NCBI GenBank assembly: GCA_038087875.1
Contig: CM075992.1
Coordinates: 11,286,001 to 11,350,000, forward strand
DNA from: Malacoraja senta
Lineage: Eukaryota
Direction: 5' to 3'
DNA length: 64,000 nt
Both the position numbers and the translations under genes were made by a program. This document shows, piece by piece, positions 814 to 64,000 of this stretch (positions are counted from its first letter, which is position 1; every line of letters starts with the position of its first letter). The notes under the pieces were generated by a model. It ran no database searches. It had not been told where the DNA came from and saw nothing but the letters and a program-made list of their open reading frames with translations.

Positions 814-999
814 ATTTTACTTCGGAGTCACGTGAGTGACTACGTGAAGAGCCCATCAGCACGCATGCGGATCATTACGTCTAACGCATGGCGCGCTGAC
901 TGGCTGGCTGGCGCGCAGCTCCAGCAGCGGTCCTTTTTAAAGACCTCAGGAGTGTATGGAAACTCACCTGCGGTGGAAATTTTTGACTTATCGTTACAG

Positions 1000-2187
1000 G
1001 ATGGACAACGCGAGGGTGAAGGCTCGCAAGACTGCAGGGAGAACCGCTTCGGAGGACCGTGGGAGTACGGTCTGCGGTCGGCAGTCCGTTTCACCATCGC
1101 GGTCGCTGCAAGCTGCACAGCCAGCGACTTCCGGCTCGGTGCCCTTGGACAGCATTTTGCATACCCCGCGGGGGAAAGCAAAGTGCACGTCCAACAGGCC
1201 TGTAGACTCGGAAGAGTCTGGCCGGGAGGATTCGCCTCCCAGAGTGGGAAGGTTGGTGGACGCCTTTCCCAAGTAGAGCAACTGATGGAGAGAATGCTCC
1301 AACAAAATACACTCCGTGGTCGGTAGTCATACCACAGCGGGGCTCGGGAACCCGCAGCAGCACCCCTTGGACGGCTGCATGACGTCTCCCCATCTGAAGA
1401 TGGGAGTGGAGAAGAGTCCTGTGGGGACGACCGCTCGATGCAGGACCCGCGGGAAGCGGAGGTACCCGGAATGATTTCCAAATTTGCGGTGTCGTCACTT
1501 GTTGGAGAGCCGCTGGAGGAAGAGCTGGCGGCAAGTATAAAACATCTGGTCTCCCACCAGCTGCAGGAGCAGGTCATCATGGAGACAACCATGCGGTATC
1601 ACGCACCCAGCAATTGTGCGTCCCTGAAGGTACCGGTGGTAAATAGTTCCATATGGAACCACATTGGGAGCGGTATTAAGACCCAAGAACTGAAGCTCCA
1701 GAGAATTCTGAATCTGCTGGGGTCAGGTCTGACAGCTTTCGCCAGGTCGGTGGACGGCTTCACATTATCAGATGCGTAGCGGGACGCAATGGCATTGTTG
1801 TGCAATGCACACTTTGAAATCAATTGTTTTCGGAAGAATGCCATTCGTCCCGTTCTCAACCCCAAGTTTGCGGGGTTGTGCAAAGCTAGTAATGTGCAGC
1901 CACCAAACTTGCTGCTTGGGGATGACCTGTCCAGGCAGGTGAAAGACCTCGATGAGGAGTCAAAGGCTGTGGGGCTTCTTCGGGCTCCACCAGGGAACAA
2001 GCCGTCGTCGTTCCGCCGCTTCCAGCCTTATTCTCTATCCATCACAAGACCGGCTGGGCAACCAATGAGTCCGGGAAGAACCGGACGGAAGTCTGTTTTA
2101 GGGCAAGGACCGAGTCGACCCACTATGAAGATGCGCAGCTACTGTCCACAAGCACCCCAAAACCCCAAACATCGGGGAAGGAAATAA
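1000..2187 (+). pseudogene. DIRS gag-like ORF1 (disrupted)
   Basis: ORF pieces 1438-1779 and 1789-2187 (PSNCASLKVPVVNSSIW, IRPVLNPKFAGLC, LLLGDDL) are homologous to the ORF1 pieces of copies 2 and 3. Confidence 0.7.
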
Positions 2188-2199
2188 CTGGCCAGAATC

Positions 2200-5100
2200 C
2201 ATCTAGTACGGAGGTAGGTGGGTCTGGTTCACATTGTAACATACCGAGTGTAGAGTTATTGCATGTTGGTGGTAGGTTATGTTTCTTTTTGCATGAGTGG
2301 CGTTGGATTACTTCTGATTTGTTCATACTGCATAGTGTTGAAGGGTTTAAAATAGAATTTACGGGCGCGTTGCCACCCACGCAGCATGTTCCAAGCCGTA
2401 CCTTTTTGCGTTAAAAAAAAGAACGATTTGGAAGTCGAGGCTGAAATTGAAACTCTGTGTGAAAAAAGGGTAATTGAGAAAACCAGGTATGCGCCACACC
2501 AGTTTGAGTCCAATATTTTCACCAGAGAAAAGAAGGATGGGGGGTGCCGCATTATAATGGATTTAACCCAATTAAACACTTTTGTGCAGTACAAACATTT
2601 CAAAATGGAAAGCTTTGTTACGGCGAAACATTTAATTTCCAGGGGGTGTTATATGGCATGTATTGATCTCAAGGATGCTTATTATTCGGTCCCTATTCAC
2701 AAAGAACACATGAAGTAACTGAAGTTTAGCTGGATGGGGCAGTTATCGCAATTTAAAGCCCTGCCTAATGGGTTGACCTCAGCTCCTAGACTGTTCACTA
2801 AAATACTAAAACCTGCACTGGCTCTTTTACCAGCACAGGGGCACATAGTCATGACTTACCTAGATGACATCCTCATCATAGGCAAAGCTATGGAATTAGC
2901 TATTTCGGCAGTTTCAGCCACTAAGTTTGTGTTTGAAAAGTTGGGTTTCCTAATTCATCCAGTAAAATCCAGGTTGACTCCATCCACTATCATGGATTAC
3001 TTGGGATTTAGTATTAACTCCAATCACCTGGTTGTAACGTTGCCCGAGGGCAAGAGATTGAAGTTAATAGAGTCCTGCAGCAATATGATTGCACATCAGC
3101 TGCCTTCAATTCGACAAGTGGCAAGCCTAATTGGAAAATTGGTTGCTGCATTTCTGGCAGCAAAATTTGGGCCTCTTCATTATCAGCAATTGCAAAGAAC
3201 CAAGGTGCAAGCACTTAAAAGGAATTTGGCCATTTTGACAGGGCCATGCAATTATCGGTTGAGGCAATTGACGAGCTCCAGTGGTGGATATTCAATCTTG
3301 ACTATTCTGGCAATATTTCAATTGAAAACCATTCAATGGTATTACAGACTGATGAAAGTGCGTTAGGTTGGGGAGCCACTGACACCCTTTCTAGCTGTGG
3401 TGGCAGATGGACTGTGCATGAACTATCTTTTCTACAGGTGCATGGGGTTAACTATTTGGAGTTGCTTGCAGCCTTCTATGGTCTGAAAGCTTATTGCGCA
3501 TACATGCAGCAGCTGCATGTTCAGTTACAGATAGATAATACTACTGCTGTAGCTTACATAAATCACATGGGTGGTATCAAGTCAGTATCATGTGATAAAT
3601 TGGCTAACCTCATTTGGCACTGGTGCATTATTCGGAATATTTGGGTGTCGGCAATCTACCTACCAGGTAGATTCAATACCTGGTAGGTAGGTTCTGCACT
3701 CAGCTGGTTCCGTTCTTACCTTTCCAACCGATCCCACTTCATCTCTCTCCATAACCACACCTCTGCCACAGCCACTGTCACTCAAGGCGTTCCCCAAGGC
3801 TCCGTTCTTGGTCCCCTCCTCTTCATCATCTACATCCTCCCCCTTGGTCATATACTCCGTCACTTCAAACTGGACTTCCACTGCTATGCTGATGACACCC
3901 AGATCTATCTCAGCACCAAGTCCCCCCACCACCCCCCTCTCTCCCATATCAACTCCTGCCTATCAGCCATCAAATCTTGGATGCAACTCAACTTCCTTAA
4001 ATTAAACAGTAGCAAAACAGAATTTCTCCTCATTGGCTCCAAATCAACACTCACTAAAATCAACAACCCCACTCTCACTATCTCCTCAGGCATGCAACCT
4101 TGGCGTGATCCTTGACTCAACCCTCTCCCTTGAGCCTCACATCCGCCATGTTGTCAAAACATCATTTTTTCACCTCCGCAACATTGCAAAAATCAGATCG
4201 TCTCTCACACCCCCCGCTGCTGAAAGACTCATCCATGCCTTCATCTCCTCCCGACTGGACTACTGTAACTCTCTTCTTTTCGGAATCAATTCCAGCAGCA
4301 TCAAACGACTCCAACTGGTCCAGAATGCAGCCGCCCGACTCATTACCCACACCAACTCCTGGCACCACATCACCCCAGTTCTCAAAGAACTTCACTGGCT
4401 TCCCATTTCCCACCGGATCACCTACAAAATCCTGGTCCTCACCTACAAAGCCCTCAACAACCTGGCCCCCCCTTATCTCATTGACCTCCTCTCCCCCTAC
4501 CAACCCTCACGGTCCCTCAGATCCACATCAGCTGGTCTCCTCTCCACTCCGAATTCAAACCTCTGCACTTTTGGAGGCAGAGCCTTCTCCAGGGCAGCTC
4601 CCAGGCTCTGGAATTCCCTCCCACAACCGGTCCGAAATTCTGAGTCCCTCACCATCTTCCAGTCCCGCCTCAAGACCCATCTCTTCACCTCTGCATACCC
4701 TTAGTCCCATGTTCCCCTCCCCTCTGTCTTACTGCTCTATTTTGTTTTGTTTATTCCTGACTCTCAATTGTAAAGCGACTTTGAGTCCTGAAAAGCGCTA
4801 TATAAAATAAATCTATTATTATTAATACAGTGGCGGACACCAGGTCACGTAAATTCAATTAGAACACAGAATGGATGTTGAATCATAGAGTATTTAAGGA
4901 CATTATTTCTAGGTACGGAACACCGGATATGGATATGTTCGCTTCAAGGTTAGACCATCAGTTACCTTACTATGTTTCGTGGGAACCAGACCCAGGGGCT
5001 GTAGCTGTAGATGCGTTCTCGCTACATTGGGGAGGAATGTTTTTCTACGCATTCTCCCCATTCTGCCTTGTCACTCGCTGTCTGCAAAAGATTCAGCAGG

Positions 5101-5285
5101 ACTCTGCCTCTGGCATTCTGGTAGTCCCTGATTGGCCCACTCAGCCATGGTACCCGCTTGTTCTCGGCATGGTGGTACAACCAGTTTGGAGGATACCCAA
5201 ACACAAGTCGTCTTTGACTAACCCCAGGTCCGGTGAAGTGCATCCTCTGCATGATCGACTCAATTTGTTAATTTGCAGGTTTTGA
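2200..5285 (+). pseudogene. DIRS RT-RNaseH-DNA adenine methyltransferase-like ORF (disrupted, split by L2 at 3680-4823)
   Basis: KKDGGCRIIMDL, HFKME, IDLKDAYY, LPNGLTSAPRLFTK, YLDD; RNase H QTDxSxxGWG, NYLELLA, DNTTAVAYIN; MT EWML, PDMDMFASR, YAFSPF, VPDWPTQPWYP. Confidence 0.88.
3680..4823 (+). mobile_element. L2 LINE, 5'-truncated, inserted in DIRS copy 1
   Basis: [13 protein letters not shown] and YADDTQIY RT motifs; LIHAFISSRLDYCNSLL and LKELHWLP L2 C-terminus; 3' end TGTAAAGCGACTTTGAG..GAAAAGCGCTATATAAA with (ATT)n tail; AATAC duplicated at 3675-3679 and 4824-4828. Confidence 0.92.
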
Positions 5286-6076
5286 GAAGACCTTTCCTTG
5301 GACTGGGACTAGCTGAGCATACGGTGGATGTTTTAACTGCGGCATGGAGAAGCAGTACACAGAAACAATATGCATTGTATATCAGGAAATGGGAATTGTT
5401 CTGTGCACAGTACGATATACTGTATGACGAAGTGCATATCACACATGTTCTGGAGTTTCTCTCACATTTATACCATGATGAGAGATTAAGTTATAGTGCA
5501 ATAAATAGTGCCAGGAGTGCGCTTTCGTCATATTTACATTCAGGTTCACAACAACTGGCTGTGGGCTCGCATCCATTAATTTCTATGTTCATGAAGGGAG
5601 TTTTCAATTCTAACCCTCCCAGGCCCAGATACACAGATATTTGGGAAGTAGGGGTGGTTCTTAAGTCACTACGTTCATGGGCTCCACCATCTTCCCTGTC
5701 TCTACTCCAGCTGACGCACAAGGTGGTCATGCTGATGGCCTTGGTGTCGGCTCAGAGGGTCCAATCCTTGCAAAAGCTACGGTTGGATAGTATGCTCACT
5801 TCGGACAGTGTGTCCACCTTTTTCATTTACGACAACATTAAACAAAGTAGACCAGGGTCCTCGGGGCTTAAATTACGGTTCATAGCATATCCTTTGGATC
5901 CCGAGTTGTGTGTAGTTCGTCACCTCAGGCAATATATGAAAGTTACCAAAGAGCTTAGAGGTTCGGTGCTAGCACTACTAATCAGCCATAAGAAGCCACA
6001 CAAGAGTGTCTCTACCCAGACCATTTCTAGGTGGCTCAAACTAGTTCTAGCCCATTCATGTGTCGATACTAAAATG
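5273..6076 (+). pseudogene. DIRS tyrosine recombinase (truncated)
   Basis: WRSSTQKQY, LSYSAINSARSALS, LMALVSAQRVQSL, KQSRPG, LCVV, QTISRWLKLVL; C-terminal catalytic residues are missing. Confidence 0.88.
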
Positions 6077-34149: not shown

Positions 34150-34325
34150 GTAACAATACTGATATCCGCTGCTATCTGTGTGGAGTTTGCACATTCTCCC
34201 CGTGACTGTGTGGGTTTCCCCGGGTGCTCCAGTTTCTCTCACATCGCTGAAACATGCTGGGATGTTAATCAGCAGCTGTAAAATGCCCCAGTGTGGGTTA
34301 ATGGCAGTTGATGTGACGGTGTCAA
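34150..34325 (+). mobile_element. V-SINE-like fragment
   Basis: TGTGGAGTTTGCACATTCTCCCCGTG core; paralog at ~60850-61010. Confidence 0.6.
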
Positions 34326-34686
34326 TAGACAATAGACAATAGGTGCAGGAGTAGGCCATTTGGCCCTTCGAGCCTGCAGCGCCATTCACTGTGATCATGG
34401 CTGATCATCCACAATCAGTACCCTGTTCATGCCTCCTCCCCATATCCCTTGACTCCGCTATCTTCCATAGCTCTATCTAACTCTCTCTTGAAAGCATCCA
34501 GAGAATTGGCCCCCACTGCCTTCTGAGGCAGAGAATTCCACAGATTCACAACTCTCTGGGTGAAAATGTTTTTCCTCATCTCCATTCTGAATGGCCTACC
34601 CCTTATTCTTAAACTGTGGCCTCTGGTTCTGGACTCCCCTAACATCGGGAACATATTTCCTGGCCCTAGCTTGTCCAATCCCTTAA

Positions 34687-36626
34687 TCTATATTACTAAA
34701 AGTCTTATCCTGACCACTTCCTGTTCTGTATATTGAATATAGAAATAACGTTGCCACTTACGGCTGTGATTTTTGGCCATCTTACTCCGAGACCCCCGCC
34801 GCTGCGCAGGACAAGAGGATTTTTCCCATCAATGAAAAATAAAAGAGTTATTAGTGTTTAAAAAATGTTGAGATTCTCTCTCCTGAAGGCCACGCCCCTT
34901 CCGGAGGGACTATAAAACCCGGAAGTGTTGAGTGCCTCACCTCAGTCTCTGCAAAATGAGGGAAGCGAGAGGGTCACGTCTCTCAGTCTGAGCTGTGAAT
35001 AACCCTGAACACATGTCTACTAAACTGTGTGTGTGGTTTTACTGGCCTTGAGTACCCTTAATGTGGTTTGAAAATGAAAATGTGATTGGTTTGAATAAAG
35101 CACAGCAAAAGGTTGGTGGTGGTTGGTTTGAACTAAAGCACAGCAAATGGTTGCTGGTGGTTGGTTTGAACTAAAGCACAGCAAATGGTTGGTGGTGGTT
35201 GGTTTGAACTAAAGCAATGATTAAAAGTCTAAACTTGACAAATTCCTGTTTGCACTGTATATTGATTTTAGATAAAACGCTACCACTTACGACTGTGATT
35301 TTTGGCCATCTTACCCAGTCCCCCTCCGCTCATCAGGTGCAGAGGATTCTTCCCATCAATGAAAAATAAAAGTTTAATTAGTGTTTAAAATTTTTTGAGA
35401 ATCTCTCTCCTGTCAATCATGCCATGAAGGCTACGCCCCTTCTGGTGGGAGGGGGGGGGATTATAAAACCTGGAAGTGTGGGTGTGGCTCAGTGTCTGCA
35501 AGATTGGGGAGGGAGAGGTCATGATTCTGTCTAAGCTGTGAATCAACTGAACACACTGAATGTCTACTGAACTGTGTGTGGTGTTTATGTGGTGTTTTGT
35601 GTGGTTTTGTGGTGGTTTTATGGAGGTTACACCCTGATTGAAATGGTATGAAACTGCATTTGAATTTGGTGGTCTTGCACCCTGCTTGAAGTGGCATGGA
35701 ACTGCACTTGAATTTGTTGGCCTTGCACCCTGATTGGTGGCATGAAACTGCACTTGAATTTGGTGGCCTTGCACCCTGCTTGAAGTGGCATGAAACTGCA
35801 CTTGAATTTGGTGGCCTTGCACCCTGCTTGAAGTGGCATGAAACTGCACTTGAATTTGGTGGCCTTGCACCCTGCTTGAAGGGGCATGAAACTGCACTTG
35901 AATTTGGTGGCCTTGCACCCTGATTGGTGGCATGAAACTGCACTTGAATCTGGTGGTCTTGCACCCTGCTTGAAGTGGCATGACACTACACTTGAATTTG
36001 GTGGACTTGCATCCTGCTTGAAGTGGCATGATACTGCACTTGAGTTTGGTGGCCTTGCACCCTGCTTGAAGTGGTAGGAAACTGCACTTGAATTTGGTGG
36101 CCTTGCACCCTGCTTGAAGTGGTGTGAAACTGCATTTGAATTTGGTGGCCTTGCACCCTGCTTGAAGTAGTATTAAACTGCACTTGAATTCGGTGGCCTT
36201 GCACCTTGCTTGAAGTGGTAGGAAACTGCACTTGAATTTGGTGGCCTTGCACCCTGCTTGAAAGGGTAGGAAACTACATTTGGAGAGGTGGAGAGGTGGA
36301 TTATTTGGTGGCCTAGCACCCTGCTTGAAATGGAATTTCAAGGAATAGCCGTGAGTCAACTGCCAGCCCACCATCCGTGAGTGAGCTGCCAGCAGATCAG
36401 GCTTTTGTGACCGAGCTGCCACCCCAAGAATCCATTTGGCCAACAATATCCATACTAGCCCTCTGGAAACCAGTCCCTTCAGCCCACAACACCCATACTA
36501 GCGCTCCAGAAATTGTCCCCCCCCCACTGGGCACCAATATTGGAATTGGTGGAGAGGTGGATTATTGCGTTGGGGGACCTGCCCTCCCGTGTGAACATGG
36601 GACCCAACGGGTCCCACTTAGTCTAG
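34687..36626 (+). mobile_element. Complete non-autonomous Helitron
   Basis: 5' TC, 3' hairpin TGGGACCCAACGGGTCCCA then CTAG, inserted between A and T with no TSD. Confidence 0.88.
35630..36335 (+). repeat. ~52-bp minisatellite inside the Helitron
   Basis: Repeats of GCACCCTGCTTGAAGTGGCATGAAACTGCACTTGAATTTGGTGGCCTT-type units. Confidence 0.9.
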
Positions 36627-36946
36627 TAATCTTATATGTTTCATTAAGATCCCCTCTTATCCTTCAAAATTACAGTGTATACAAGCCAGGTTGCTCCATT
36701 CTTTCAACATATGACAGTCCCGCCTTCCCGGGAATTAACCTCGTGAACCTACGCTGCACTCCCTCAATAACAAGAATGTCCTTCCTCAAATTTCGAGCAC
36801 CAAAAATGCTCACTAGAGCCCTGTACAACTGTAGAACAACCTCTTTGCTCCTATATTCCTCATCTTGTTATGAAGGCCAACATGCCATTCGCTTTCTTCA
36901 CTGCTTGCTGTACCTGCATGCTTACATACAGTGACTGATGAACAAG

Positions 36947-37430
36947 TGTGAATATGCATGGGTTTGGGTACTTGGGGAAAATGGCAGATGTCTGTGAAAC
37001 CTGCTTCACTGAGGCTGACATCACTTGCAGGGAGCTGGAGATCCATGTGACATAGATGGCTCCAGGGAGTCTGAAGCATGGGTAGGGGCTGCAGAAGGTT
37101 TTTGCCCTTGTGACCTACATGTTGCCACAATGTCTGGGATTCTGCAGGTGCAGCAAAGCCCTGATGCTAAAGGCAAGCCTGTGGTTGGTTGGAGAGATGT
37201 TATGTCTCAACTGGGTTTTGGTACCTTCCCGCCGGTACTTGTGATTGGTCCAGAAAAGTGGTCTCACCAAAGATAATGGTATCTTTATCTAATGGTAAGG
37301 TTTCTTTACTTAATGGGAATGTTTCTCCCTGTGCTATGTGTTGAAACTATGTTATGTACTGTTATATGATTGGGCCAAAGAGTTGTCATTCTATGTATTT
37401 TGCAGCCGGTATCGGTAATTGGTTTCTAGG
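36947..37430 (+). mobile_element. Truncated copy of the solo LTR (paralog of 59760-60229)
   Basis: Starts TGTGAATATG at the same CR1 position; homology stops at ~37430. Confidence 0.75.
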
Positions 37431-37789
37431 TGCTGAGGAACAGTATTTAGCGGGAAGAGGGTTCCAGGCCTAGGGGGGTTTGAGGCCCCGTCTGTGCGGG
37501 TTCAAGTACCAAACAGTGCTGGGTATTATCAGTGCCAAGGTAAAATTGGCTGGAATACTTTAAAAATTAGCACTGAATTTTTAGGACGCATCTGTGATAA
37601 TTCTAGGACTGTGATCCAAATTTTTTAATCTAAATTTTATGAATTCGAGGTATTCATATCCAGTGCTTTTGGTTATTCTTATACTTTAGTTGTTTGTTTC
37701 TGATCGTGTAATATAGCGACTTGCGTAAGATTGTGTAATTTACTCTGCTACCGTAATTGTAATTTAAATCGTATGCTTATACGTTATAT

Positions 37790-50095: not shown

Positions 50096-53000
50096 ATTTT
50101 ACTTCGGAGTCACGTGAGTGACTACGTGAAGAGCCCATCCAGCACGCATGCGCGACATTAGCGTTCACGCAGTGCAACAGCGACGACCGGGACTACAGGC
50201 GCTCCCGCTACAAGTTTAAACAGCGGACCATCAGGTAAGTCTTACTCTGTGGTCATAATCAGCAAGCTGTGCTCTGCTCTGTATTCCAGGGGAACTGGGA
50301 AAATGAGAAGCACGGCAAAGGAAGAAAACCGCCCCCCCGTTCGACTCCAACAGAACGGAAGTGTTCCATCAGTGGGGGGCGAAAGGCGGCACCTGGACCG
50401 CATATGCTGCGGTCCACCCACATCGAGACCGAGCCGAGCCCAGTACCGCTAGCGCAGCCTGATGAGCGGCAGCGGGCTGGAGGAAAAGTTGAATAAATAA
50501 ATAAATAAATAAATAAAATTTAAACCGGCCGGTTATGTCTGACTCCGATGAGGAGGGTCTGCCTTAGAGCGGCAGAGCTAGCCGCCTGAGCCGAATGAAA
50601 AGGCTCATGGAGCAACTGCTCCAGCGAGACTTGCTGCAGGAGCTAGAGCAGTCTCGCCAGGGGGATCAGGCACTCCCACAGCAGTGCTCTACAATGCACT
50701 GGCCATCGCTTTCCCCCCAAAGCAGGGCAGCGTTGGCGACCAGGGCTGGGCTGGTCAGGAACAGGGGTCATTGGCTGAAGATGTCGGGAGTACGCTTGGG
50801 GTACAGGATCAGGAAGAGCTGCTGGGTGTGGAGATTCGCTACGTGGTTACACCACGAGCAGAGCGGCCATTGGAGCTAAAACTGGCGGCCAGCATCAACC
50901 ACCGGCTGTTAACAGGCAAATCTGGGTGGGGGGGGGACAGAGTATCCGGAACCAGGAGCTAAAATCCTCAAGCTCCTGACGACAGGGATAACAGCCTATG
51001 CTCGTTCCGTGGATGGGGTGGATATGACCACAAACCAGCAAGACACTCTGGCTCTGCTGTGCTACACCCAATATGAGATAAACAACCTCCGCAAGGAGAG
51101 AATAAGACCTGCCCTCAATCCCAGGTTTGCAGGACTGTGTAAAACACCGGCCTCAGAGCCGCAGATCCTGTTATTTGGAAGGACAAGTGAAAGACCTGGA
51201 GGAAGAGTCCAAAGCATTTGGCCTCATGAGGGCAGGCCCCGGAACGAGCAGACCCACACAAAAAACCAGACGGCAGTACCCCACCGCGTCCACCAGTCAA
51301 GGTCAAATTTATGGAACTGGTGAAAGCTCGGGGTCCGCATACTATCCCCGAAAGCCTTTTTAGGCCAGGGCCCAGAGCGGACCCCATGGAAAATGCGCCA
51401 CCCCCAATCAGCAGTACATCAGCAGTACATCCAGCAGTATAACGACGGATGAACAAACGGAAGACAGGAACTCTACCATAACTATGGAGGTAGGTGGGTC
51501 TGGTTCCTACCAGCATGTAAATGGGGAACTGTACTAACAGGAGGTGTCTCACGAATGATAGTTATATACTTAACAGTATTCGGGGATACAAAATAGAGTT
51601 CATTCAAGAAAACATGCCACCAGTTCAGCACGTACCCCAAAGGGTCTTTACCCTCTCAGTCAAAGAGAACTAGAGGCTCAAGCAGAACTGGTGAGGTTAC
51701 TTACAAAGGGTGTCATTGAGAAATCCAAACATGAACCTTTGGAATTTGTCTCAAATATATTTACCAAAAGCAAAAAAGATGGTGGATGTCGCATCATCAC
51801 TGACTTAACCTCACTAAATACCTTTGTTAAGTATGTACATTTCAAAATGGAAACATTTGTAACTGCTAAACATCTGATTTCCAAAGGATACTTTATGGCA
51901 AGCATTGATTTAAAAGATGCCTACTATTCAGTACCCATTCACAAGGGTCATCGCAGTTACCTAAAAATTTACCTGGATGGGGCAACTATGGCAGTATAAA
52001 GTGTTGCCTAATGGGTTGACATCAGCCCTAGACTATTTACCAAGATATTAAAACCAGCCTTGGCAACATTAACGAAACAAAGATATATTGTCATGGCATA
52101 TCTTGATGATATCCTAATAGTAGGCAAAACCATGGAGTTGGCTAAAATCTGCTGTATTAGCTACCAAACAATTGTTTGAAACCCTGGGTTTGTCATACAT
52201 ACAGATAAATCTAAGTTTACGCCATCCACAACTATGGACTATCTGGGATTCACAATTAACTCAATCCACATGTCTGTAACGTTGCCAAAAGGTAAAGCAG
52301 CAGAATTGGCACAGATGTGCAACAATTTAATGGTAAGCAATCGACCAACCATCCGACAAGTGGCAAGAGTAATTGGCAAAATGGTAGCAGCATTTTCAGC
52401 TACACAATTTGAACTCCTGCACTATCAGCACCTACAAAGGGCAAAAGTACAGGCGTTGAAACGACATGCAGGTCACTTTGACAGAACCATGAAACAACCC
52501 ATTGAAGCAATATCAGAGTTACAATGGTGGATATAACATTTGGCATAGTTCCAGCCCTATCATCATCAATAACCCAACGTTAACTATACAAACAGATGCC
52601 AGTGCTCAAGGCTGGGGAGCAACTAATACCATATCCAGCACAGGTGGTAGATGGACTAACCTAGACTCATATTTACTACAAACACTGGGCATAAATTATT
52701 TGGAAATGTTGTGTGCGTTTTATGGTTTTAAAGCATATTCTAGGAATATGCACAACTTGCATGTTCATTTACAAATTGATAATATCACGGTGGTGGCCTA
52801 TATTAACCATATGGGCGGAATAAAGTCGATATCATGTGACAATTGGGTCAACACAATCTGGTAATGGTGGGTCGATAGACATATTTGGCTATCAGCAACT
52901 TACCTACCAGGTAATCTAAATACAGTGCCAGGTCACGCAAATTCAATGATAAACACCGAATGGATGTTAAATCCTAGAGCTTTTGCTAAAATTACAAACC

Positions 53001-54826
53001 AATATGGCACACCAGATATCGATATCTTTGCATCCAGACTAAATCACCACGTACCAATGTATGTCCCTTGGGAACCACACCCTGAGGCAGCAGCGATAGA
53101 TGCATTCGCGCTAAATTGGGGGACCTATTTCTTCTATGCTTGTCCCCCCTTCTGCCTTAATCTGTAGGGTACTACGCAAAATACAGATGGACTCTGGTTC
53201 AGGTATTTTGATAGTACCAACTGGCCTACACAGCCATGGTTCCCAGTGGTACTCGACATGGTCATCGAAACTCCTATGACCTTTCCCAGTAGCCCAGACC
53301 TATTGACGCACCCTGTATCAGGCATAAGTAATCCATGCCATGACAAAATTAACCTACTGGGTTGCAGATTATCAAAAGACCACTGCTGGGACTGGGGTGT
53401 CTGACAGGACCATCAACATGATGACACCGTATGTCCAACAGGAAACAATACCTATCGAGCATCAGGAAGTGGGAAAGATACTGCTCGGCTACTGGGACAA
53501 CGTAGTCATCTGCAACCATAACCAATGTACTGGAGTTCCTGGGGGGGGCCTTCACCATAATGAAGGATTGAGCTACAGCGCCATCAATACTGCCAGAAGT
53601 GCGCTGTCACCTACTTAAAACAGGTGCCAGGACAAACAGGCCATAGGGTCTCAACCGCTGGTGATCAAACTCATGAGGAGTATCGTCAACTCCAACCCTC
53701 TTAGACCTAGGTATACCCAAATCTGGGATGTCAGTGTGGTCCTGACATACCTAAGGGGATGGTCCCCAGCCAGGTCACACCCTGGAAAAGCTAACCCTGA
53801 AAACGGTCATGCTGATGCCACTAGTCTCAGCACAAAGTGTCCAGTCCCTCCACTTACTGCGACTGGACAACATGGTTATAACACCAGACCGGGTCTCATT
53901 CACCATTCAGGAGCTGCTAAAGCAGAGCAAGCCAGGAACTTGAGTCATAGTTATGGATTTCCGGGCATACTCACCAGACCTACGGTTGTATGTCATGACT
54001 CACTTATTCACTTACATCAACACAAGAGATTCTCGAGGGTGAAAGAAAAAAAAAAAAAAAAAAAAAAAAAAGCCTTATGGGTCAGCCACAAGAAAACCTC
54101 ATGGTTGGGTGTCGAGCCAAACCATCTCGAGATGGCTCAAGCAGGTACTGGGAGCTGCTGGAGTAGATACTGATGTATATACATCTCACTCCACCAGGGC
54201 AGCATCCACATCGGCGGCTAAAAGAATGAACATGGAGAAAACGTTCCAAACGTTCTACCACAAGCCGCTAGCAGAACCTGTGTTATTTGCAGAAAGAGTT
54301 TTAAAATCTGCAAAAATATATAATTTAAGCCCGGGGGAGCATTTTGTCTTTTGTTATTGTTTAATAGATACCATTATTGTTTACAAACAGATTATGGTTG
54401 ATTACGATAACATACTTCCTCCCTTGAATGACTTCGGCAGCGAGTGAAGTATGAACTGTTACACGGTTTGAAATCACAGAGCTTTAAAATCTTCACGTAG
54501 TCACTCACGTGACTCCGAAGTAAAATAGTAAGATTAAACGAGAACTTACCAGTTTGAAGTTTGATCTGTATTTTATGAGGAGTTACGATGAGGGATTACG
54601 TGCCCTCCGCTCCCACCCTCAATTATAGAGATCAACTGGTATCTTAGTTCTCCTTTTCTTTACTATGTTTATTTCAATTATTGTGTTTCCTGTGATTCCA
54701 CACCGCTGCTTTGAAGAATGTCGCGCATGTGTGCTGGACGGGCTCTTCACGTAATCCCTCATCGTAACTCCTCATAAAATACAGATCAAACTTCAAACTG
54801 GTAAGTTCTCGTTTAATCTTACTATT
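50096..54826 (+). mobile_element. DIRS1-type retrotransposon, copy 2 (structurally complete, ORFs disabled)
   Basis: Left ITR from 50096, ICR 54490-54602, right ITR 54717-54753 plus 3' extension to 54826; gag, RT/RNH/MT and YR (HSTR) pieces. Confidence 0.95.
54490..54602 (+). repeat. DIRS internal complementary region (ICR) of copy 2
   Basis: Exact reverse complement of the 5' terminus joined to the reverse complement of the 3' terminus. Confidence 0.93.
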
Positions 54827-57800
54827 TTACTTCGGAGTCACGTGAGTGACTACGTGAAGAAACCGCTCAGTGCGCAGGCGCGGCATTACGCCAGCAGTGC
54901 AACAGCGGCGGCAGCTGGAGGAAGGCGCTCCGGCTGCATTTTTAAAAAAACGGACCGTTGGGTGAGTATATTCAACTAGTTTAACGGAGAAAGAGAATGT
55001 GGGTTTTCTTAGCAAGTAAGTACACTCACGAGAAGACTCTCCAACAGAACTGCCCCAGCTCAACTCCACCAGAGGAGCGTTTAATCTCAGGGGGGCAGCA
55101 ACAGGCGGCAGGACCGCTCATAGGGCGCTCCGCTATCCCCGAGACCGAGCCGAGCCGAGTCCCGCTAATGCCTGCACAGCGAACAGGGAGCAAAGCCATG
55201 AGAGCAACCGGCCGGTAATGTCTGATTCGTCGGATGGGGACATGTCTCCACCTACACGGAGGTGAGACAGCCGCCAGAGCTTACAACAGCTCTTGGAGCA
55301 GATGCTCCAGCGAGCTACGCAGAAGGAGCGTTCTCGCGGAGGTAGGTCAGGCACCTCCTCCACAGTGTCTTGTGCACTGCCCTCTGCTCCCTCATTACTG
55401 GAGGCTAGAATTGGTGACCAGGGTTGGGCTGGTCTGGAACAGGGGCTGGCAGAAGAATTCGGCAGTATGCAAGGGGTGCAGGAGCAGGAAGAGCTGCTGG
55501 GTGTCATGGACCGCTATGTAGCAACCCCACGTGCTGGAAGACCGCTGGAACCAAAAATGGTGGCCAGCATCAATCATCTGTCAAATAAGCCCTTGCAGGA
55601 GAAGGTACTTCTTGAGGCGCTTGAATTTTACACAGCACCAGAGAACTGTGAGGCCTCAGAGTGAAGACTGTGTACAGCCAGATCTGGGGTCACGTGGGGT
55701 CAAACATGTGTAACCATGAAATCAAGCTACAGCGGATCCTAAGGCTCCTGACGTCGGCCATTACAGCCTTTGCTCGTTCTGTTCAAAGTACGGAGATGAA
55801 TACGTGCCAGCAGGATGTGCTGGCACTGATGTGCAACACAATTTGAGATACACAATCTCCGGCGGGGAAACATAAGACCTGCCCTCAATCCCAAATTTGC
55901 TGGATTGTGCAGAGCCCCAGCTGCAGAGACGGACACTCTGTTATTTGGGAAAGACCTCAACAAAAAACTGAGGGACATGGAGGAAGCAGCGACATCTTTC
56001 GGCCTCATGAGGGCAGGCCCTGGGACGAGCAAACCAAGAGCTACAATACCCAAGCGGCAGCACCCCATGGCATCCACCAGTCGACGTCCTCAATATGGGA
56101 CTGGTGAAAGCTCGGGGACCGCATTTTATCCCCAAAGATCTTTTTTAGATCAGGGCCCACAGCGGACCCCATGGAAAATGCGCCACCCCCCAACATCGCC
56201 AGCACGTCAGACAAGCAAAACCTACAAAAACATCAGGAAACAAAAGAAACACCAATAACCATGGAGGTAGGTGGGTCTGGTTCCTGCCAGCATATAGAGA
56301 ATAAGGGTGCTTTACTAACAGAGGGGAGATTACACTGGTTTAAAGAAGCATGGGTTACTGTCACGTGTGACAAGTATATACTCAACAGCATTAGTGGAGA
56401 GGTCATCCAAAAGACCAAACATGAACCTTTGGAATTTGTATCAAATAAAACCCAAAAAGATGGTGGATGTCGCATCATCATTGACTTAACATCACTAAAT
56501 AAGTTTGTTGAGTATATACATTTCAAAATGGAGACAGCTGTTACTGCCAAACAACTGATTTCCAAAGGATACTTCATGGCAAGCATTGATCTGAAAGATG
56601 CTTACTATCTAATACCCATACACAAGGATCATTGCAGATACCTACAATTTATCTGGTTGGGGCAGCTGAGGCAGTACAAAGCATTGCCCAATGTGCTAAC
56701 TTCAGCCCCAAGATTATTCATCAAAATATTGAAAATAGCCATGGCAAGACTAAGAAACAAACACATATTGTCATGGCATACCTGGATGATATTCAGATAG
56801 TAGGGAAAACGATGGAATTGGCTGTGGCAGCAGTATCAGCTACAAAACAGCTCCTCAAAACTCTGGGGTTCGTCCTACATCCAGATAAATCTAAGTTGAA
56901 GCCATCCACTATTATGGACTACCTGGGCTTCACAATTAACTCAGTCCATATGACTGTTACCTTGCCAAAAGGAAAATAAAAATAAATAAATAAATAAATT
57001 AATTAATTTTAAAACATTTTTTTTTTAAATGGTTGCATTAGCACAATCATGCAACTATTTAATGGTCAACAAACGACCAACTATTCGACAAGTCCCAAGA
57101 GTGATTGGGAAAATGGTAGCAGCATTTCCAGCTACACAATGCGGACCTTTGCACTATCAAAATTTACAAACGGCAAAGGTACAGGCACTAAAACGACATA
57201 CAGGTCACGATGTTCGTGTCATGTAATTACCCACTGAAGCAATATCAGCTACAGTGGTGGGCAGAAAATGTTTGGCATAGTTTCAGCTCTATCATCATCA
57301 CTAACCTTACTTTAGTTCTTCAAACAGATGCCAGTGCTCAAGGCTGGGGAGCAACTAACTCCATATCCAGCACAGGTGGTAGATGGACTAACCTAGAGTC
57401 ATCATTACTACTGACACTGGGCATTAACTATCTAGAGATGTTGGGCGCCTTTTATGGGTTAAAAGCATATGTATCTAATATGCAGCACTTGCATGTTCGG
57501 TTACAGATTGATAATACTATGGTGGTGGCTTATATTAACCATATGGGCGGCATAAGATCATTATCATGCGACAAATTGGTCAACGTGATTTGGCTATGGT
57601 GTGTCGAAAGACATATTTGGCTATCAGCTACTTATCTACCAGGTAAGCTAAACACAGTGGCAGACACCAGGTCACGCAAATTCAATGATAACATCGAATG
57701 GATGTTAAACCCTAAAGTATTTGCTAAAGTTATTAAGCAGTATGGAACGCCAGGTATCGATGTATTTGCATCAAGACGAAATCACCAGTTACCTATATAT

Positions 57801-59589
57801 GTCACTTGGGAACCAGACCCAGAGGCAGCAGCGATACATGCCATCACGCTGGATTGGGGAAATGTCTTCTTCTATGCTTTCCCTCCCTTCTGCCTCATCA
57901 GTCGGGTACTTCGCAAAATACAGATGGACTCTGCTTCTGGAATTTTGATGGTGCCCGACTGGCCTACACAGCCATGGTTCCCGGTTCTACATGACATGGT
58001 GGTTGAGTCACCAATGGTCTTTCCCAGTGATCCAGGATTATTAACTCACCCAGTATCAGGCATAAGCCACCCATGCCATGAGAAAAATTAAACTCCTGGG
58101 TTGCAGGCTTTGAATAGATCTTACCTGGAACAGGGATTGTCCGAACGAACCATCACCACCATGTCGGCATCACTTTGAACATCCACCAAGAGGCAGTACT
58201 GAATCAGCATAAGAAAATGGGAGAAGTACTGCCAGGAAACAGGGACAACGTATGCAACAGCCACAGCCACCAACGTACTGGAATTCCTGGCCCATCTACA
58301 CCATGATGAAGGGATCAGTTACAGTGCCATCAACACAACGCGAAGTGCTCTTTCTGCTTATCTCAAACCAGCAGGACAACAGGCAATGGGATCCCATCCA
58401 CTGGTGGTAAAACTGATGAAGGGCATTTATGATATCAAGCCCCTAAACCCAGGTATACCCATATTTGGGATATCAGTGTGGTCCTGACATACCTCAGGGA
58501 ATGGCCACCAGCCAGATCCCTCAGCCTTGAGCAATCTACACTAAAGACGCTCATGTTGATGGCACTCGTATCCGCTCAGAGGGTCCAGTCACTACACAAG
58601 TTAAGGCTGGACAACATGGTGACCACCCCAGATCAGATCACATTCATCATACAGGGTCTGGTGAAGCAAAGCAGGCCAGGAACAGCTAATCCACTGGTGG
58701 TATTCCGGGCCTACCCACAAGAGCCACGGTTGTGTGTCATGAACCATCTACAACATTACATAGACACAACCCACAATATCAGAGGGAGTGAAAAAGCCTT
58801 ATGGGTCAGCCACAAGTAACCTCATGGCCGGGTAATGAGCCAAACCATTTCAAAATGGCTCAAACAGGTACTGAAGGCTGCCGGAATAGATACTAATACA
58901 TTTAAATCTCATTCCACTAGGGCAGCATCTACATCAACGGCCGACAGAATGGACGTACCGGTTGACCATATTCTGAATACAGCAGGATGGTCGAGGGAAA
59001 CGACATTCAGAACTTTTATAATAAGCCGTTGATAAAACCTGATTTATTTGCAGAGAAAATATTACAAGCTGCAAATATATAATTTAAGCCCGGGGGAGCA
59101 CTTTAATTTTGTTATTGTTAATAAATACCTTTTTTGTTTCTTGAGAAACAGATTCATTGGTTGATTACGATAACAGTTCCTCCCTCAAGAACTTTCGGCA
59201 GTGAGTGAAATAAAACTGTTACACGGTTTGAAATCACAGAGCTTTAAAATCTTCACGTAGTCACTCACGTGACTCCGAAGTAAAATAGTAAGATTAAACG
59301 AGAACTTACCAGTTTGAAGTTTGATCTGTATTTTATGAGGAGTTACGATGAGGGATTACGTGCCCTCCGCTCCCACCCTCATTATATGGATCAAACTAAT
59401 AAATTGATGTCTCCTTTTCTTTACTATGTTTACTTCAAATACTTGTGTCTATCTGTGATTCCACACCGCTGCTTGGAAGTATGCCGCGCCTGCGCACTGA
59501 GCGGGTTCTTCACGTAATCCCTCATCGTAACTCCTCATAAAATACAGATCCAACTTCAAACTGGTAAGTTCTCGTTTAATCTTACTATT
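54824..59589 (+). mobile_element. DIRS1-type retrotransposon, copy 3 (structurally complete, ORFs disabled)
   Basis: Own ITR pair (54851-54886 vs 59481-59516), ICR 59250-59362; RT, RNH+MT ORF 57210-58091, YR with HSTR..AGWS..TF. Confidence 0.95.
59250..59362 (+). repeat. DIRS ICR of copy 3
   Basis: Same sequence as the copy 2 ICR. Confidence 0.93.
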
Positions 59590-61144
59590 ATATTGTATAC
59601 AATACCGTGGGGCCGATCTTCACAACCACTCACTCGAGCCTAATACAGCCTCGTGCAAACAAAAACAGACTAAAGACAATTGGCAAACCCCCATGAACTA
59701 CCGACCCCTTTATACCCCTCCAAACTAGAGGCACAAAAGTACTTGGGGAGGCAACCCCTACAAACCAATTACCGATACCGGCTGCAAAATACATAGAATG
59801 ACAACTCTTTGGCCCAATCATATAACAGTACATAACATAGTTTCAACACATAACACTTGGGGAGAAACATTCCCATTAAGTAAAGAAACATTACCATTAG
59901 ATAAAGAAACATCATTGGTGAGGCCATTCTTCTGGACCAATCACAAGTACCGGCGGGAAGGTACCAAAACATAGTTGAGACATAACATCTCCCCAACCAA
60001 CCACACGCATGCCTTTAGCATCAGGACATTGCAGAATCCCAGACATTGTGGCAACATTGTGGGTCACAAGGGCAGAAACCTTCTGCAGCCCCTTCCCAGG
60101 CTTCAGACTTCCTGGAGCCATCTATGTCACATGGGTCTCCAGCTCCCTGCAAGTGATGTCACCCTCAGTGAAGCAGGTTTCACAGACAACTGCCATTTTC
60201 CCAAGTACCCAAACCCATGCATATTCACACTTGTACATCAGTCTATGAAAGTAAGCATGCAGGTACAGCAGGCAGTGAAGAAAGCGAATGGCATATTGGC
60301 CTTCATAACAAGAGTAGTTGAGTATAGGAGCAAAGATGTCCTTCTACAGTTGTACAGGGCCCTTGTCAGCAGTTTTGGTGCTCGAAATTTGAGGGACATT
60401 CTTGCTTTTGAGGGAGTGCAGCGTAGGTTCACGAGGTTAATTCCCGGGATGGCGGGACAGTCATATGCTGAAAGAATGGAGCGGCTGGGCTTGTATACTC
60501 TGTAATGTTGAAGGATGAGAGTAGATCTTATTGAAACATATAAGATTATTAAGGGTTTGTACACGCGAGAGGCAGGAAACATGTTCCCGATGTTGGGGGA
60601 GTCTAGAACCAGGGGCCACAGTTGAGAATAAGAGGTAGGCCATTTAGAAAGGAGATGAGGAAAAACTTTTTCACGCAGAGAGTTGTGAATCTGTGGAATT
60701 CTCTGCCAATTCTCTGAATGCTTTCAAGAGAGAGTTAGATAGACCTCGAAGATAGCGGAGTCAAGGGATATGGCGAGAAGGCAGGAACGGGGTACTGATT
60801 GTGGATGATCAGCCATGATCACAGTGAATGGCAGTGCTGGCTATCGATACCGTCCCATCAACAGCCATTAACCCACACTGGGGCATTTTACAGCTGCTGA
60901 TTAACATCCCAGCAAGTTTCAGCGATGTGGGAGAAACTGGAGCACCCGGGGAAACCCAGTCACGGGGGAGAACATGCAAACTCCACACTGATAGCACCGG
61001 AAATCAGTATTGTTACACCGGTGCTGGGAGAGTGGGAATGAGCAGGAAACTGTGGCCCAGAATATGAAATGGAGCATGAGATCCGGGGTCCCAGCAACTG
61101 AGAGGGAGGGAGCTCTGGGAAAGGAGGTGCCGGCAAATGGCATG

Positions 61145-61540
61145 GAGCTCTGGAGCGGGGGTCTCAGTGAGTGGGAGCTCTGGGAATGGGGGTCTCAGTC
61201 AGTGGGGGCTCTGGGAACGGGGGTCTCCGTGAGTGTGGGACTGGGAACGGGGGTCTCAGTGAGTGTGGGACTGGGAGCAGGGGTCTCAGTGAGTGGGGGG
61301 AGGGGGCTCTGGGAATAGGGGTCTCGGTCAGTGGGGGCTCTGGGAACGGGGGTCTCGGTCAGTGGGGGCTCTGGGAACGGGGGTCTCCGTGAGTATGGGA
61401 CTGGGAACGGGAGTCTCAGTGAGTGGGGGGAGGGGGCTCTGGGAATGGGGGTCTCGGTGAGTGGGTATGGGAACGGGGGTCTCGGTCAGTGGGGGGAGGG
61501 GAGTCTGGGAATGGGCATCTCGGTGAGTGGGGGGGGGAGG
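61145..61540 (+). repeat. ~30-bp G-rich minisatellite (GGGGGTCTCAGTGAGTGGGGGCTCTGGGAAC)
   Basis: About a dozen degenerate units; only a few units in the paralogous copies (28640-28700, 33920-34025). Confidence 0.8.
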
Positions 61541-63112
61541 TCAGCTATCAACATCTGCAGAGCCAACGTGGGGATTTCCAACTGGGACAGCAGACAATGG
61601 GAGTTTCTTGAACTCCATTCATTGTGGAGTTCCACACTTCCCTTCCGCTGCCCTGGGGTCCACACAAGCTCTCCGTGCTCCACGTGTGGTCTTTCATTGT
61701 AAATAGTGGAATAAACGGCATCAACACAATTTAACATCCACTTACCGCACCAAGTAGGAGGCCATTCCAGCCATCGTGCCCATGATAGCTCACAGGGGAG
61801 CAATCCCGTCAGTCCCAATCCTCAGCTCCTTATTTCCCCTTTAGCCCTGCAACTTATCCACTCTCTCTCTCTCTGATCCTATCCACTACCCTTTGGTGTT
61901 TGTGTCACTTTCCTGCACTAGGACTGGTTTACAGAAGACTATTAACCCATGAGCGTATGGGTGTGGGAGGAAATCAGAGTCTAATGCTGATAGGTGCGAA
62001 TGGTGCATTTTGGCATGTTACAGTTGTGCAGCGTATTGGTGAGGCTGCACTTGAAGTAGGATGTTCACTTATTGTCACCCTGCTAGAGGAAGGATGCCAT
62101 TAAGCTGGAGAGAGTGCAAAGAAGATTTAGGAGGATTTAGGAAGTCAAGGGGCTGAGCTATTGGGAGAGGTTTGGCCAGATAGGTCTTTATTCCTTGGAG
62201 CACAAGAGGCTGAGGGATGATAATATAAATGTGTTTAAAATCATGAGGGGAATAGATAAGGTGAATTCACAGTGTCATTTACCCAGGGGACATAACTGTA
62301 AGGTGTGAGAGGCAAGATTTAATATGAAGCTGAGGAGCAACATATTCACTCAGCGCTGCTGGGTAAATGGAATAAGTTGCCAGGGGAGGTGGTTGAGGCC
62401 GGCACGATAACATCATGTAAAAGACACTTGGACAGATACATTGATAGGAATTGTTTCAAGAGATGTGGGCCAAACGCAAGCAAATGGAACTAGCTTAGAT
62501 GCAACATCTTGGTCAGCACGGGTCAGGTGGGCCGAAGGGCCTGTTTCCGTGTTGTCGGCTCTATGGGTCATTGAGACCACACAGGGTTTGGAGTTGAAGT
62601 AGTGGTACAAGTGGACAGGGTGCTGGTGGGGCCAAACCTGGTTACTGGGGACAGTTTTGGTTCCTCTATTAAAGCAATGATATACCGGCAGTCCAGAGAG
62701 ATTCACTTGATTCATTCTTGATGGGAGAATTCAGGCATCAGGAGTGGCTGATGATATTTGGTCTCCAGTCTGTGGAGTTGAGAATGAGGGGTGATCTTAT
62801 TATAAAGCATGATCCTGAGGGGGGGTGAGAGGGTAAATGTGAAGAGAAGGGTGAAAACGATTCACAAGGATGTTGCCTGGATTGGCCAGCTTGAATTATA
62901 AAGTGAGATTAGACAGGGTCTGTATTCCCTGGAGCAAAGGTGGCTGAGAAATAACTGTAATATAGTTATATAAAATTATGAAAGGCACAGACAGTCGATG
63001 GCCATTTCCCACCGTACGGGTGTCCAAGATCAAAGTGTATCAGTTGAAGATGGGAAGAGAGTAGTTGAAGGAGATCAGAGTGGTCATTTGTCCACACAAC
63101 GTGTTGTTGGTA

Positions 63113-63339
63113 ATAATAATAATAATGGATGGGATTTATATAGCGCCTTTCTAATACTCAAGGCGCTTTACATCGCATTATTCATTCACTCCTCAGTCAC
63201 ACTCGGTGGTGGTGAGCTACTTCTGTAGCCACAGCTGCCCTGGGGCAGACTGACGGAAGCGTGGCTGCTAATCTGCGCCTACGGCCCCTCCGACCACCAC
63301 CAATCACTCACACACATTCACACACATTCACACGCAGGC
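63113..63339 (-). mobile_element. SINE fragment with L2-type 3' tail, absent from the paralog
   Basis: TGTAAAGCGCCTTGAG..AAAGGCGCTATATAAAT plus (TTA)n; TSD TGGTA at 63108-63112 and 63340-63344; empty site at ~25060. Confidence 0.75.
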
Positions 63340-63803
63340 TGGTAGATGCTAGATGAGGTGGTGGAGGCAGGAACAGTAACAATCTTTAAGAGGCATCCTG
63401 ATAGGTATTTGAACGAACAGGGCACAGAGGGATAGGCAATTAATGTTGGGAAGTTGTATTAGTGACACTCAGTGTGATGGCCGGTATAAGTGAGGTGGAC
63501 CAGGGTGCCTGTTTCTGTGCCGGAGATCTCTATAACCATGTGCAGAGGCAGAGGCTCCAATGAGGGGACATAGTTACCAGATAAGAGAGTGGTCATTTAA
63601 AACTGCACAGGAGCTTCCTCTCACAGAGGTCAGTGAATCGCTGGAATTCTCTACTCCGGAGGATGGTGGACACTAGATCATTTGAAGTATTTGAGGAGGA
63701 TTCAGATGATGTTTTAACACACAGCCAATACATAATCAACATCCAGTAACTGTACACAGTGCACAGTGCACCCCCCACCACACTCTTGGCAATAACTACT
63801 CAC

Positions 63804-63852
63804 CCAAAGAGCCCAGAATCAGCAGCAGAAGCCTCACTTCACCAGGTGGCAT
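63804..63852 (-). CDS. D8C-domain gene, coding exon 1 (signal peptide)
   Basis: ATG at 63852, MPPGEVRLLLLILGSL plus G|GTGAGT phase 1; joins exon 2 to give ...LGSLATDSALG|DPC; an AG acceptor just upstream implies a non-coding first exon outside the window. Confidence 0.78.
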
Positions 63853-64000
63853 TCTGGAAATGTAAGCAGGGAAATAAAATCAGAGGAAAAAGAGATACCA
63901 GGGTTTCAGGCAAAGCTGTATTCTGGGACAGAATCTACAGTACACAAAATAGCTCGCTCCCTCACATAGAGGTGAGATCGCACTCTTCCCCAGACTGTGA

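What the first reader, a model, noticed from the sequence alone, without database searches (positions are those of the whole stretch)
50096..59589. Head-to-tail heterodimer of two different DIRS elements joined at a perfect circle junction
Seen: copy 2 ends and copy 3 begins at ...AATCTTACT-ATT-TTACTTCGGAG (shared ATT at 54824-54826), exactly the reverse complement of the junction encoded in both ICRs. The two copies are not a tandem duplication. Their ITR variable parts differ (GAGCCCATCCAGCACGCATGCGCGAC vs GAAACCGCTCAGTGCGCAGGCGCGGC), each left ITR pairs only with its own right ITR, and their ORFs are diverged. The outer ends also break at ATT (50096, 59587), as does copy 1 (814). Established: DIRS integrate a circular cDNA by YR recombination over a short core. 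Inference: one subfamily used the terminus of another as its att site, an integron/prophage-like stacking that could build mixed DIRS arrays.
Basis: partly seen in the sequence, partly recalled or inferred. Interest (0 to 1): 0.7.

Follow-up and report, generated by a model that had tools for sequence, protein, structure and literature searches.

The report
Two DIRS retrotransposons stacked end-to-start
In a skate-like fish genome, two related but different jumping genes sit exactly end-to-start at one site, sharing a three-letter joint, which suggests that these elements can use the end of a resident copy as a landing site, though one example cannot show how often.

Summary
Copy 2 (50096-54826) and copy 3 (54824-59589) are decayed DIRS1-like elements of two subfamilies (76% identical). 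They share one ATT, and the 113 nt around it are exactly complementary to both ICRs. Each left ITR pairs with its own right ITR. New here: the pair splits one TG...CA insert with a 4-bp target duplication inside one colinear LINE. Both flanks therefore belong to a single site, which excludes a fusion of two loci. The two subfamilies have identical termini, so no foreign site had to be recognised. Most likely one circle recombined, by its tyrosine recombinase, into the ATT at the end of the resident element, as bacterial integrative elements do in tandem accretion. A dimer circle formed before integration gives the same DNA and cannot be excluded. No read spans the junction, no genome was held, and 0 of 42 ends of distant relatives are stacked, so preference and longer arrays are unshown. 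Self-insertion of DIRS is known; this precise heterodimer was not found in 10 paper searches, and the scan's notes showed no such case.

The parts
50096..54826 (+). DIRS1-like element, copy 2 (subfamily A), full length, decayed
   Evidence: ITRs and ICR; pol 51484-53368 with 12 frameshifts and 1 stop, YR 53334-54273 with 3 frameshifts and 2 stops
54824..59589 (+). DIRS1-like element, copy 3 (subfamily B), full length, decayed
   Evidence: RVT_1 6e-09, Phage_int_SAM_1 1.4e-04, Phage_integrase 1e-04; pol 56261-58085 with 3 frameshifts and 1 stop plus an AT-rich insertion, YR 58098-59043 with 2 frameshifts and 3 stops
54748..54860 (+). Head-to-tail joint: right terminus of copy 2, shared ATT (54824-54826), left terminus of copy 3; equals a circle junction
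   Evidence: 113/113 complementary to both ICRs
54454..54621 (+). ICR block of copy 2 (ICR proper 54490-54602)
   Evidence: 168/168 identical to the block in copy 3
59214..59381 (+). ICR block of copy 3 (ICR proper 59250-59362)
50096..50159 (+). Left terminus (37 nt, ICR-matched) and subfamily-specific left ITR of copy 2
   Evidence: 25/27 with own right ITR, 18/26 with that of copy 3
54717..54747 (+). Subfamily-specific right ITR of copy 2
54861..54886 (+). Subfamily-specific left ITR of copy 3
   Evidence: 25/26 with own right ITR, 17/26 with that of copy 2
59481..59589 (+). Right ITR and right terminus of copy 3, ending in ATT (59587-59589)
   Evidence: 78/79 identical to the terminus of copy 2; 59333-59516 lies on one contig piece of run X23 with 0 differences
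50018..50095 (-). Short part (78 nt) of the TG...CA insert, probably a solo LTR, that the DIRS pair interrupts
   Evidence: border and 4-bp duplication; LTR identity inferred from ends and a TATA-like box, no library test
59590..60229 (-). Long part (640 nt) of the same insert
   Evidence: 59757-60551 has a 90% paralog at 37430-36624
50014..50017 (+). Left copy (CTTA) of the 4-bp target duplication of the insert in a LINE
60230..60233 (+). Right copy (CTTG) of the target duplication
49961..50013 (+). LINE fragment that resumes in register at 60230
   Evidence: matches 21501-21551, while 60231 onward matches 21555 onward; joint 50013->60230 in 6, 6 and 8 contigs of runs X21, X22, X1; 'CR1-like' is my recall
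814..6076 (+). DIRS1-like copy 1 (third subfamily), 3'-truncated and interrupted; shares the 37-nt left terminus
   Evidence: 37/37 with the ICRs; RNase H segment 63-68% aa identical to copies 2 and 3

Best explanation
Sequential integration into a resident terminus. One DIRS circle first recombined at an ATT inside a solo-LTR-like insert. That left two hybrid sites, each with the ATT core and one perfect element end. A circle of the second subfamily, whose junction has the same sequence, then recombined with one of these sites through the element-encoded tyrosine recombinase. This rebuilds a perfect circle junction between the two elements and leaves three ATT. A resident end matches the incoming junction over 37 or 79 nt, a naive site over a few bases, so resident ends should be favoured targets. 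Shown: geometry, identity of the termini, single site, two subfamilies. From the literature: circle and recombinase model. Inferred: the order of events and any preference. A weak hint says copy 2 came first (18 versus 9 coding lesions).
For: Perfect junction and three ATT. Flanks are two halves of one insert with a target duplication in one colinear LINE. Own-ITR pairing puts any crossover within the last 79 nt of copy 2 or the first 37 nt of an element, which contains the core. Termini are shared between subfamilies here (113/113 at 78% body identity) and in a marine pair, L014/L033 (111/113 at 72%). Relatives integrate at ATT: 25 of 25 left ends and 14 of 17 right ends, with T two bases after the core in 13 of 17 (p 6e-4; 9 of 12, p 0.006, after dropping 5 ends with unclear cores); both resident ends here fit ATT-N-T. 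A random-ATT model gives about 1e-5 to 4e-4 per insertion for 1,000-30,000 copies in 2-4 Gb (assumed values). DIRS-1 inserts preferentially into DIRS-1 (PMC7192593, PMC2665215). Accretion into attL/attR is established for bacterial elements (PMC5704250).
Against: One case only. 0 of 42 non-redundant ends of distant relatives abut another DIRS end, though those are short contigs that tend to break at termini. Similar divergence of the two copies from run X23 pieces (19/1162 versus 46/4289, p 0.13) fits simultaneous insertion as well. The same random model expects 0.7-37 dimers per genome at 10,000-30,000 copies, so one dimer does not prove preference. DIRS recombinase specificity was untested as of PMC7192593.
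Confidence: 0.5

Rival explanations
1. Dimer formed before integration. Because the ICRs are identical, the end of one single-stranded cDNA and the start of another can be completed and ligated on either ICR, or two circles can be fused by the recombinase. The 9.5-kb dimer circle then integrates once. A read-through copy of an older dimer is a variant.
For: ICR blocks 168/168 identical. Linear single-stranded cDNA accumulates and RT acts in trans in Dictyostelium (PMC7192593). The ages of the copies are not distinguishable. The cis sequences are nearly free of mutation (1 in 565 nt) while the ORFs are broken, as expected of templates moved in trans.
Against: Needs two subfamilies active in one germ cell. 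Copy 2 has twice the coding lesions of copy 3 (18 versus 9; weak, some may be alignment effects).
Confidence: 0.25
2. Chance double insertion: the same recombinase step, but the resident end was hit only as one of many ATT-N-T sites in a genome with very many copies.
For: Expected dimers per genome are 0.7-37 at 10,000-30,000 copies. Both subfamilies lay far deeper than the non-LINE flanks in three runs (depth is no copy number). TE dimers by double insertion are common in Drosophila (PMC5932611).
Against: A handful of dimers in tens of thousands of 64-kb windows would rarely be met (inference); the scan lists no other noted window of this genome.
Confidence: 0.1
3. Host homologous recombination or break repair inserted a circle through the 79-nt or 37-nt terminal identity, without the recombinase.
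For: The product is identical. Homology-type insertion into existing copies has been suggested for DIRS-1 (PMC5633606).
Against: A crossover in the longer identical ICR block (168 nt) or in the body would swap the ITR partners, and they are not swapped. 37-79 nt is short for vertebrate homologous recombination (my knowledge).
Confidence: 0.08
4. Assembly artefact: the assembler walked from a right end through ICR words into the left end of another copy.
For: Such walks occur: L015 shows a perfect junction inside an exact 5,940-nt fold-back, 1 of 86 loci. No spanning read was seen.
Against: The flanks are colinear halves of one site, so two wrong joins through at most 113 nt would be needed. 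Both copies carry their own lesions. The window resolves a 2.7-kb microsatellite and several duplications and has one 200-N gap, which suggests a long-read assembly (inference).
Confidence: 0.07

Closest known systems
DIRS1-like retrotransposons (order DIRS); nearest named protein XP_055488383.1 of Leucoraja erinacea, 84% aa
   Same: ITRs, ICR overlapping on a 3-bp junction, ATT at both ends, gag-like/RT-RNase H-MT/YR order, no target duplication beyond the core (PMC3266345)
   Different: Nothing in the single elements; what differs is the exact end-to-start stacking of two subfamilies
Dictyostelium DIRS-1 self-insertion (Cappello 1984, as cited in PMC7192593, PMC2665215, PMC5633606)
   Same: A DIRS element lands at another DIRS element
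   Different: There it lands inside copies, with no target sequence defined; here it is precisely at the terminal ATT, leaves both elements whole and rebuilds a junction
Tandem accretion of ICEs/IMEs/prophages at attL or attR (PMC5704250)
   Same: [quoted passage not shown]
   Different: Bacterial DNA elements with long specific att sites; here a vertebrate retroelement with a 3-bp core; excision not shown
TE tandem dimers by double insertion in Drosophila (PMC5932611)
   Same: Head-to-tail dimers from repeated use of one site
   Different: DDE or endonuclease chemistry with a target duplication at the joint; here the joint is the element's own recombination site
TATE of Leishmania (PMC6681497)
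   Same: YR retrotransposon found in tandem clusters
   Different: Split direct repeats and a telomeric-repeat target; not ITR/ICR type

Membership tests
DIRS1-like retrotransposon | Inverted terminal repeats | tested here: met
   45 nt 91% and 44 nt 93%
DIRS1-like retrotransposon | ICR complementary to both termini, overlapping on a 3-bp junction | tested here: met
DIRS1-like retrotransposon | RT, RNase H and methyltransferase-like domain in pol | tested here: met
   RVT_1 6e-09 in copy 3; Dam only weak in the window (E 0.041) and 0.0028 in relative P0003; RNase H through relatives bearing PF17917; copy 2 fragments gave no Pfam hit alone (0 of 7) but align to P0001-P0004
DIRS1-like retrotransposon | Tyrosine recombinase ORF after pol, HSTR motif | tested here: met
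   PF02899, PF00589 in copy 3; HSTR in both copies; both ORFs broken
DIRS1-like retrotransposon | Begins and ends with NTT; no target duplication beyond the core | tested here: met
   ATT at all ends
DIRS1-like retrotransposon | Circular cDNA intermediate and recombinase activity | not testable with these tools
   needs experiment
Tandem accretion (works like) | Internal hybrid site equal to the circle junction, outer sites sharing the core | tested here: met
Tandem accretion (works like) | Both flanks from one original site | tested here: met
   an uninterrupted copy of the insert was not found in the window
Tandem accretion (works like) | Sequential entry (single-element allele) and preference for resident ends | tested here: inconclusive
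   no genome; joints table cut, 665 rows hidden; 0 of 42 ends in relatives
Integron | One platform integrase with attI and passive cassettes with attC hairpins | tested here: not met
   each unit carries its own YR and pol; integron definition from my knowledge
Simple tandem duplication | Near identity along the whole unit | tested here: not met
   76%

The most novel reading that the evidence does not exclude
Vertebrate DIRS1-like elements home to their own attL/attR ends. Since termini stay nearly invariant across subfamilies that are only 70-80% identical, any subfamily can dock on any other and rebuild a perfect, reusable junction each time. This would build mixed and possibly excisable arrays like bacterial genomic-island accretion, and give a sequence basis for the long-unexplained DIRS self-targeting and clustering.
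Probability: 0.35. Interest if true: 0.68.

Novelty: new variant of a known kind. Interest (0 to 1): 0.42.

Why it matters
How DIRS recombinases choose targets is open: specificity was untested (PMC7192593) and self-insertion was called unresolved (PMC2665215). A precise heterodimer points to a simple rule, that a resident end is a better site than naive DNA. One string count in any long-read skate, fish or amphibian genome can test it. If it holds, it explains DIRS clusters, predicts mixed arrays and rearrangements between junctions, and warns that repeat annotation merges such units. If counts match chance, this is an ordinary curiosity.

Tried and rejected
No whole genome is held, so the genome-wide junction count could not be run. 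The junction 30-mer has 0 exact matches in metagenome contigs. No relatives in viral contigs (0 of 22 candidates). The 24 listed runs are all Logan contigs with word shares 0.10-0.61; I laid 4 of 24. No listed piece spans the junction or the outer ends, and the tables were cut (665 joints and 381,141 pieces hidden), so empty or single-element alleles were neither seen nor excluded. The paralogous segment at 36624-37430 breaks off 167 nt before the insertion site and does not show the empty site. A terminus-like motif 84 nt upstream of the element in L040 is not a DIRS end. Rfam: 0 matches in 49500-60500. Rejected: simple duplication (76%); fusion of two loci by deletion or translocation (colinear flanks); crossover in body or ICR (ITR pairing); integron analogy. 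The idea that identical termini are peculiar to this pair was weakened by L014/L033, although L050/L052 (90% body, 79% junction) go the other way. Goodwin and Poulter 2001 and Eickbush and Jamburuthugoda 2008 are not held.

Full report
Observation. ATT starts copies 1, 2 and 3 at 814, 50096 and 54824 and ends copy 3 at 59587-59589. The junction 20-mer occurs once on the + strand and twice, as the ICRs, on the - strand. The 113 nt 54748-54860 are fully complementary to both ICRs. Copies 2 and 3 are 76.0% identical (3436/4520), with third-position-biased differences in pol (9/11/27). In a tree of a 130-residue RNase H segment (29 rows) the three window copies are separate tips in one clade (support 100/99) with a little-skate protein. 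That protein is the best database hit, at 84% identity, so the host is probably a skate or ray. Both elements are dead: 18 coding lesions in copy 2 and 9 in copy 3, not counting stops inside insertions. Each left ITR pairs with its own right ITR (25/27, 25/26) and poorly with the other (18/26, 17/26).

One site, not two. A LINE fragment ends at 50013 and resumes in register at 60230 when compared with other window copies. Contigs of three runs join 50013 to 60230 (6, 6 and 8 contigs); these are other copies of the LINE and show its continuity, not an empty allele. The block between is bounded by TG...CA and a 4-bp duplication with one mismatch, CTTA and CTTG. The DIRS pair splits it into 78 and 640 nt. 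I read it as a solo LTR from its ends and a TATA-like box, with no library test and no uninterrupted copy found. The nesting is LINE, then LTR-like insert, then DIRS pair. This excludes a deletion or translocation that fused two distant elements, and makes a misassembly need two wrong joins. The artefact risk is real in short-read data: L015 has a perfect junction inside an exact 5,940-nt fold-back. No read across the window's junction was seen. All 24 runs offered were contigs and the four laid gave cut tables. Run X23 carries copy 3 as two long pieces (25 differences in 1937 nt, 21 in 2168) and its right ITR with 0 in 184, so subfamily B exists as such in another organism.

Shared termini. 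The left 37 nt are identical in all three copies, the right 79 nt differ at one base, and 168 nt around the ICR are identical between copies 2 and 3. I fetched 86 related loci (79 kept from the best 80 of 515 metagenome matches, and 7 of 7 in genome bins). 68 had a YR end and 47 a parsable junction, found by a conserved right-end motif. L001-L004 match 82-86 of the 113 junction bases at about 60% body identity. Among pairs above 66% body identity, L014/L033 have 111/113 at 72%, five pairs at 66-72% range from 84% to 98%, and L050/L052 have 79% at 90%. Near-invariant termini across subfamilies are therefore not peculiar to this pair. To the recombinase, A and B present the same site.

Target rule in relatives. 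After removing duplicates (28 to 25 left ends; 17 right ends) the genomic core is ATT in 25 of 25 left and 14 of 17 right ends. T follows two bases after the core in 13 of 17 (p 6e-4), or 9 of 12 after dropping 5 ends with unclear cores (p 0.006). A purine precedes the core in 23 of 25; the window's copy 2 has T there, like its junction. Several ends come from the same families. None of the 42 ends abuts another DIRS terminus, and apart from the inverted fold-back in L015 no locus holds a second pol. These contigs are short and often stop at termini, so the test is weak, but it gives no support for frequent stacking.

Mechanism. In the accepted model the termini are completed on the ICR, the cDNA is closed into a circle, and the recombinase exchanges the 3-bp junction with the same triplet in the genome (PMC3266345, passages; PMC7192593, passages and Introduction). 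After one integration each end keeps the core and one perfect element side. A second circle recombining there gives exactly the structure seen (inference). Own-ITR pairing confines any crossover to the terminal 79 or 37 nt. I give sequential entry with preference for resident ends 0.5, a dimer made before integration 0.25, a chance hit 0.10, host recombination 0.08 and artefact 0.07. Order cannot be fixed: lesions 18 versus 9 hint that copy 2 is older, while divergence from X23 pieces is 1.6% versus 1.1% (p 0.13). With assumed genome sizes of 2-4 Gb and 1,000-30,000 copies, a random-ATT model gives about 1e-5 to 4e-4 per insertion and 0.007-37 dimers per genome, so chance is unlikely for a given window but not excluded.

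Unexplained. The cis sequences together show 1 mismatch in 565 nt where 6-9 would be expected at the X23 divergence (Poisson p 0.014-0.001), and all 8 CpG of the ICR block are intact while the bodies have CpG observed/expected near 0.4. X23 is another organism, so that rate may overstate decay after insertion. Possible causes are recent movement in trans of already broken templates with ends rebuilt on the ICR, exchange of the 3' module, or local conversion.

Literature. DIRS-1 inserts preferentially into DIRS-1 with no target defined (PMC2665215, passages; PMC5633606, passages). PMC5941688 (passages and part of the reference list) says the same of zebrafish, but cites a Dictyostelium paper and a review. 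Accretion at attL/attR: PMC5704250 (passages). Double-insertion dimers: PMC5932611 (abstract and one section). Tandem TATE: PMC6681497 (passages). Passages of 10.1101/2021.08.05.455354, PMC9341512, PMC5890265 and PMC8547959 had nothing on stacked DIRS. Ten searches listed no paper that, by title, abstract or the passages read, describes precise head-to-tail DIRS1-like dimers. The founding papers of Goodwin and Poulter were not available and may mention them. No supplements were read. The scan's notes showed no such case in six look-ups.

Verdict. A real and clean heterodimer of ordinary DIRS1-like elements. It follows naturally from the textbook model once termini are shared, and resembles known self-insertion and accretion. 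Its value is a cheap test of an open question. New variant of a known kind; interest 0.42.

Noticed in passing
window 54798-54826 and 59561-59589; L001-L086: The right end carries GGTAAGT(T)CTCGTTTAA, nearly invariant in the 47 junctions parsed from distant relatives (the motif was used to find them). It contains a 5' splice-site consensus, and the ICR side reads ACTTACC, like the 5' end of U1 snRNA (recalled). It may be a recombinase or RNA-processing signal.
   Followed up: partly
window about 2212, 51487, 56265: GGAGGTAGGTGGGTCTGG just after gag is shared by all three copies; it could be the splice donor that an earlier scan note (e1-7142852) reports for making the recombinase mRNA.
   Followed up: no
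window 54454-54621 / 59214-59381: The identical block extends 36 nt before and 19 nt after the junction-complementary part and keeps all 8 CpG.
   Followed up: partly
window 47982-48401 (-): Exon-like frame with a weak uromodulin-like D8C match (PF23283, E 9e-04, below cut-off); the DIRS pair may lie in an intron of a uromodulin-like gene.
   Followed up: partly
window 22167-29902, 33925-37430, 59757-63997: Several inverted duplications at 81-92% identity suggest a duplicated gene cluster; the paralog at 36624-37430 shares the LINE/LTR-like border but not the DIRS pair.
   Followed up: partly
window about 37500-39200 (-): Sequence that reads like a decayed PIF1-type helicase of a Helitron (recognised by eye, not tested), with a 75% second copy at 33265-33474.
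   Followed up: no
window 3684-4820: About 1.1-kb LINE-like insertion in the pol of copy 1, with a short inverted duplication at its left border.
   Followed up: no
L015: Exact 5,940-nt fold-back through the ICR: short-read assemblies can create false perfect DIRS junctions.
   Followed up: yes
L080-L086: DIRS1-like elements inside bacterial genome bins, probably eukaryotic DNA binned by mistake.
   Followed up: no
window 45073-47820: 2.7-kb degenerate (AC)n microsatellite next to the 200-N gap.
   Followed up: no
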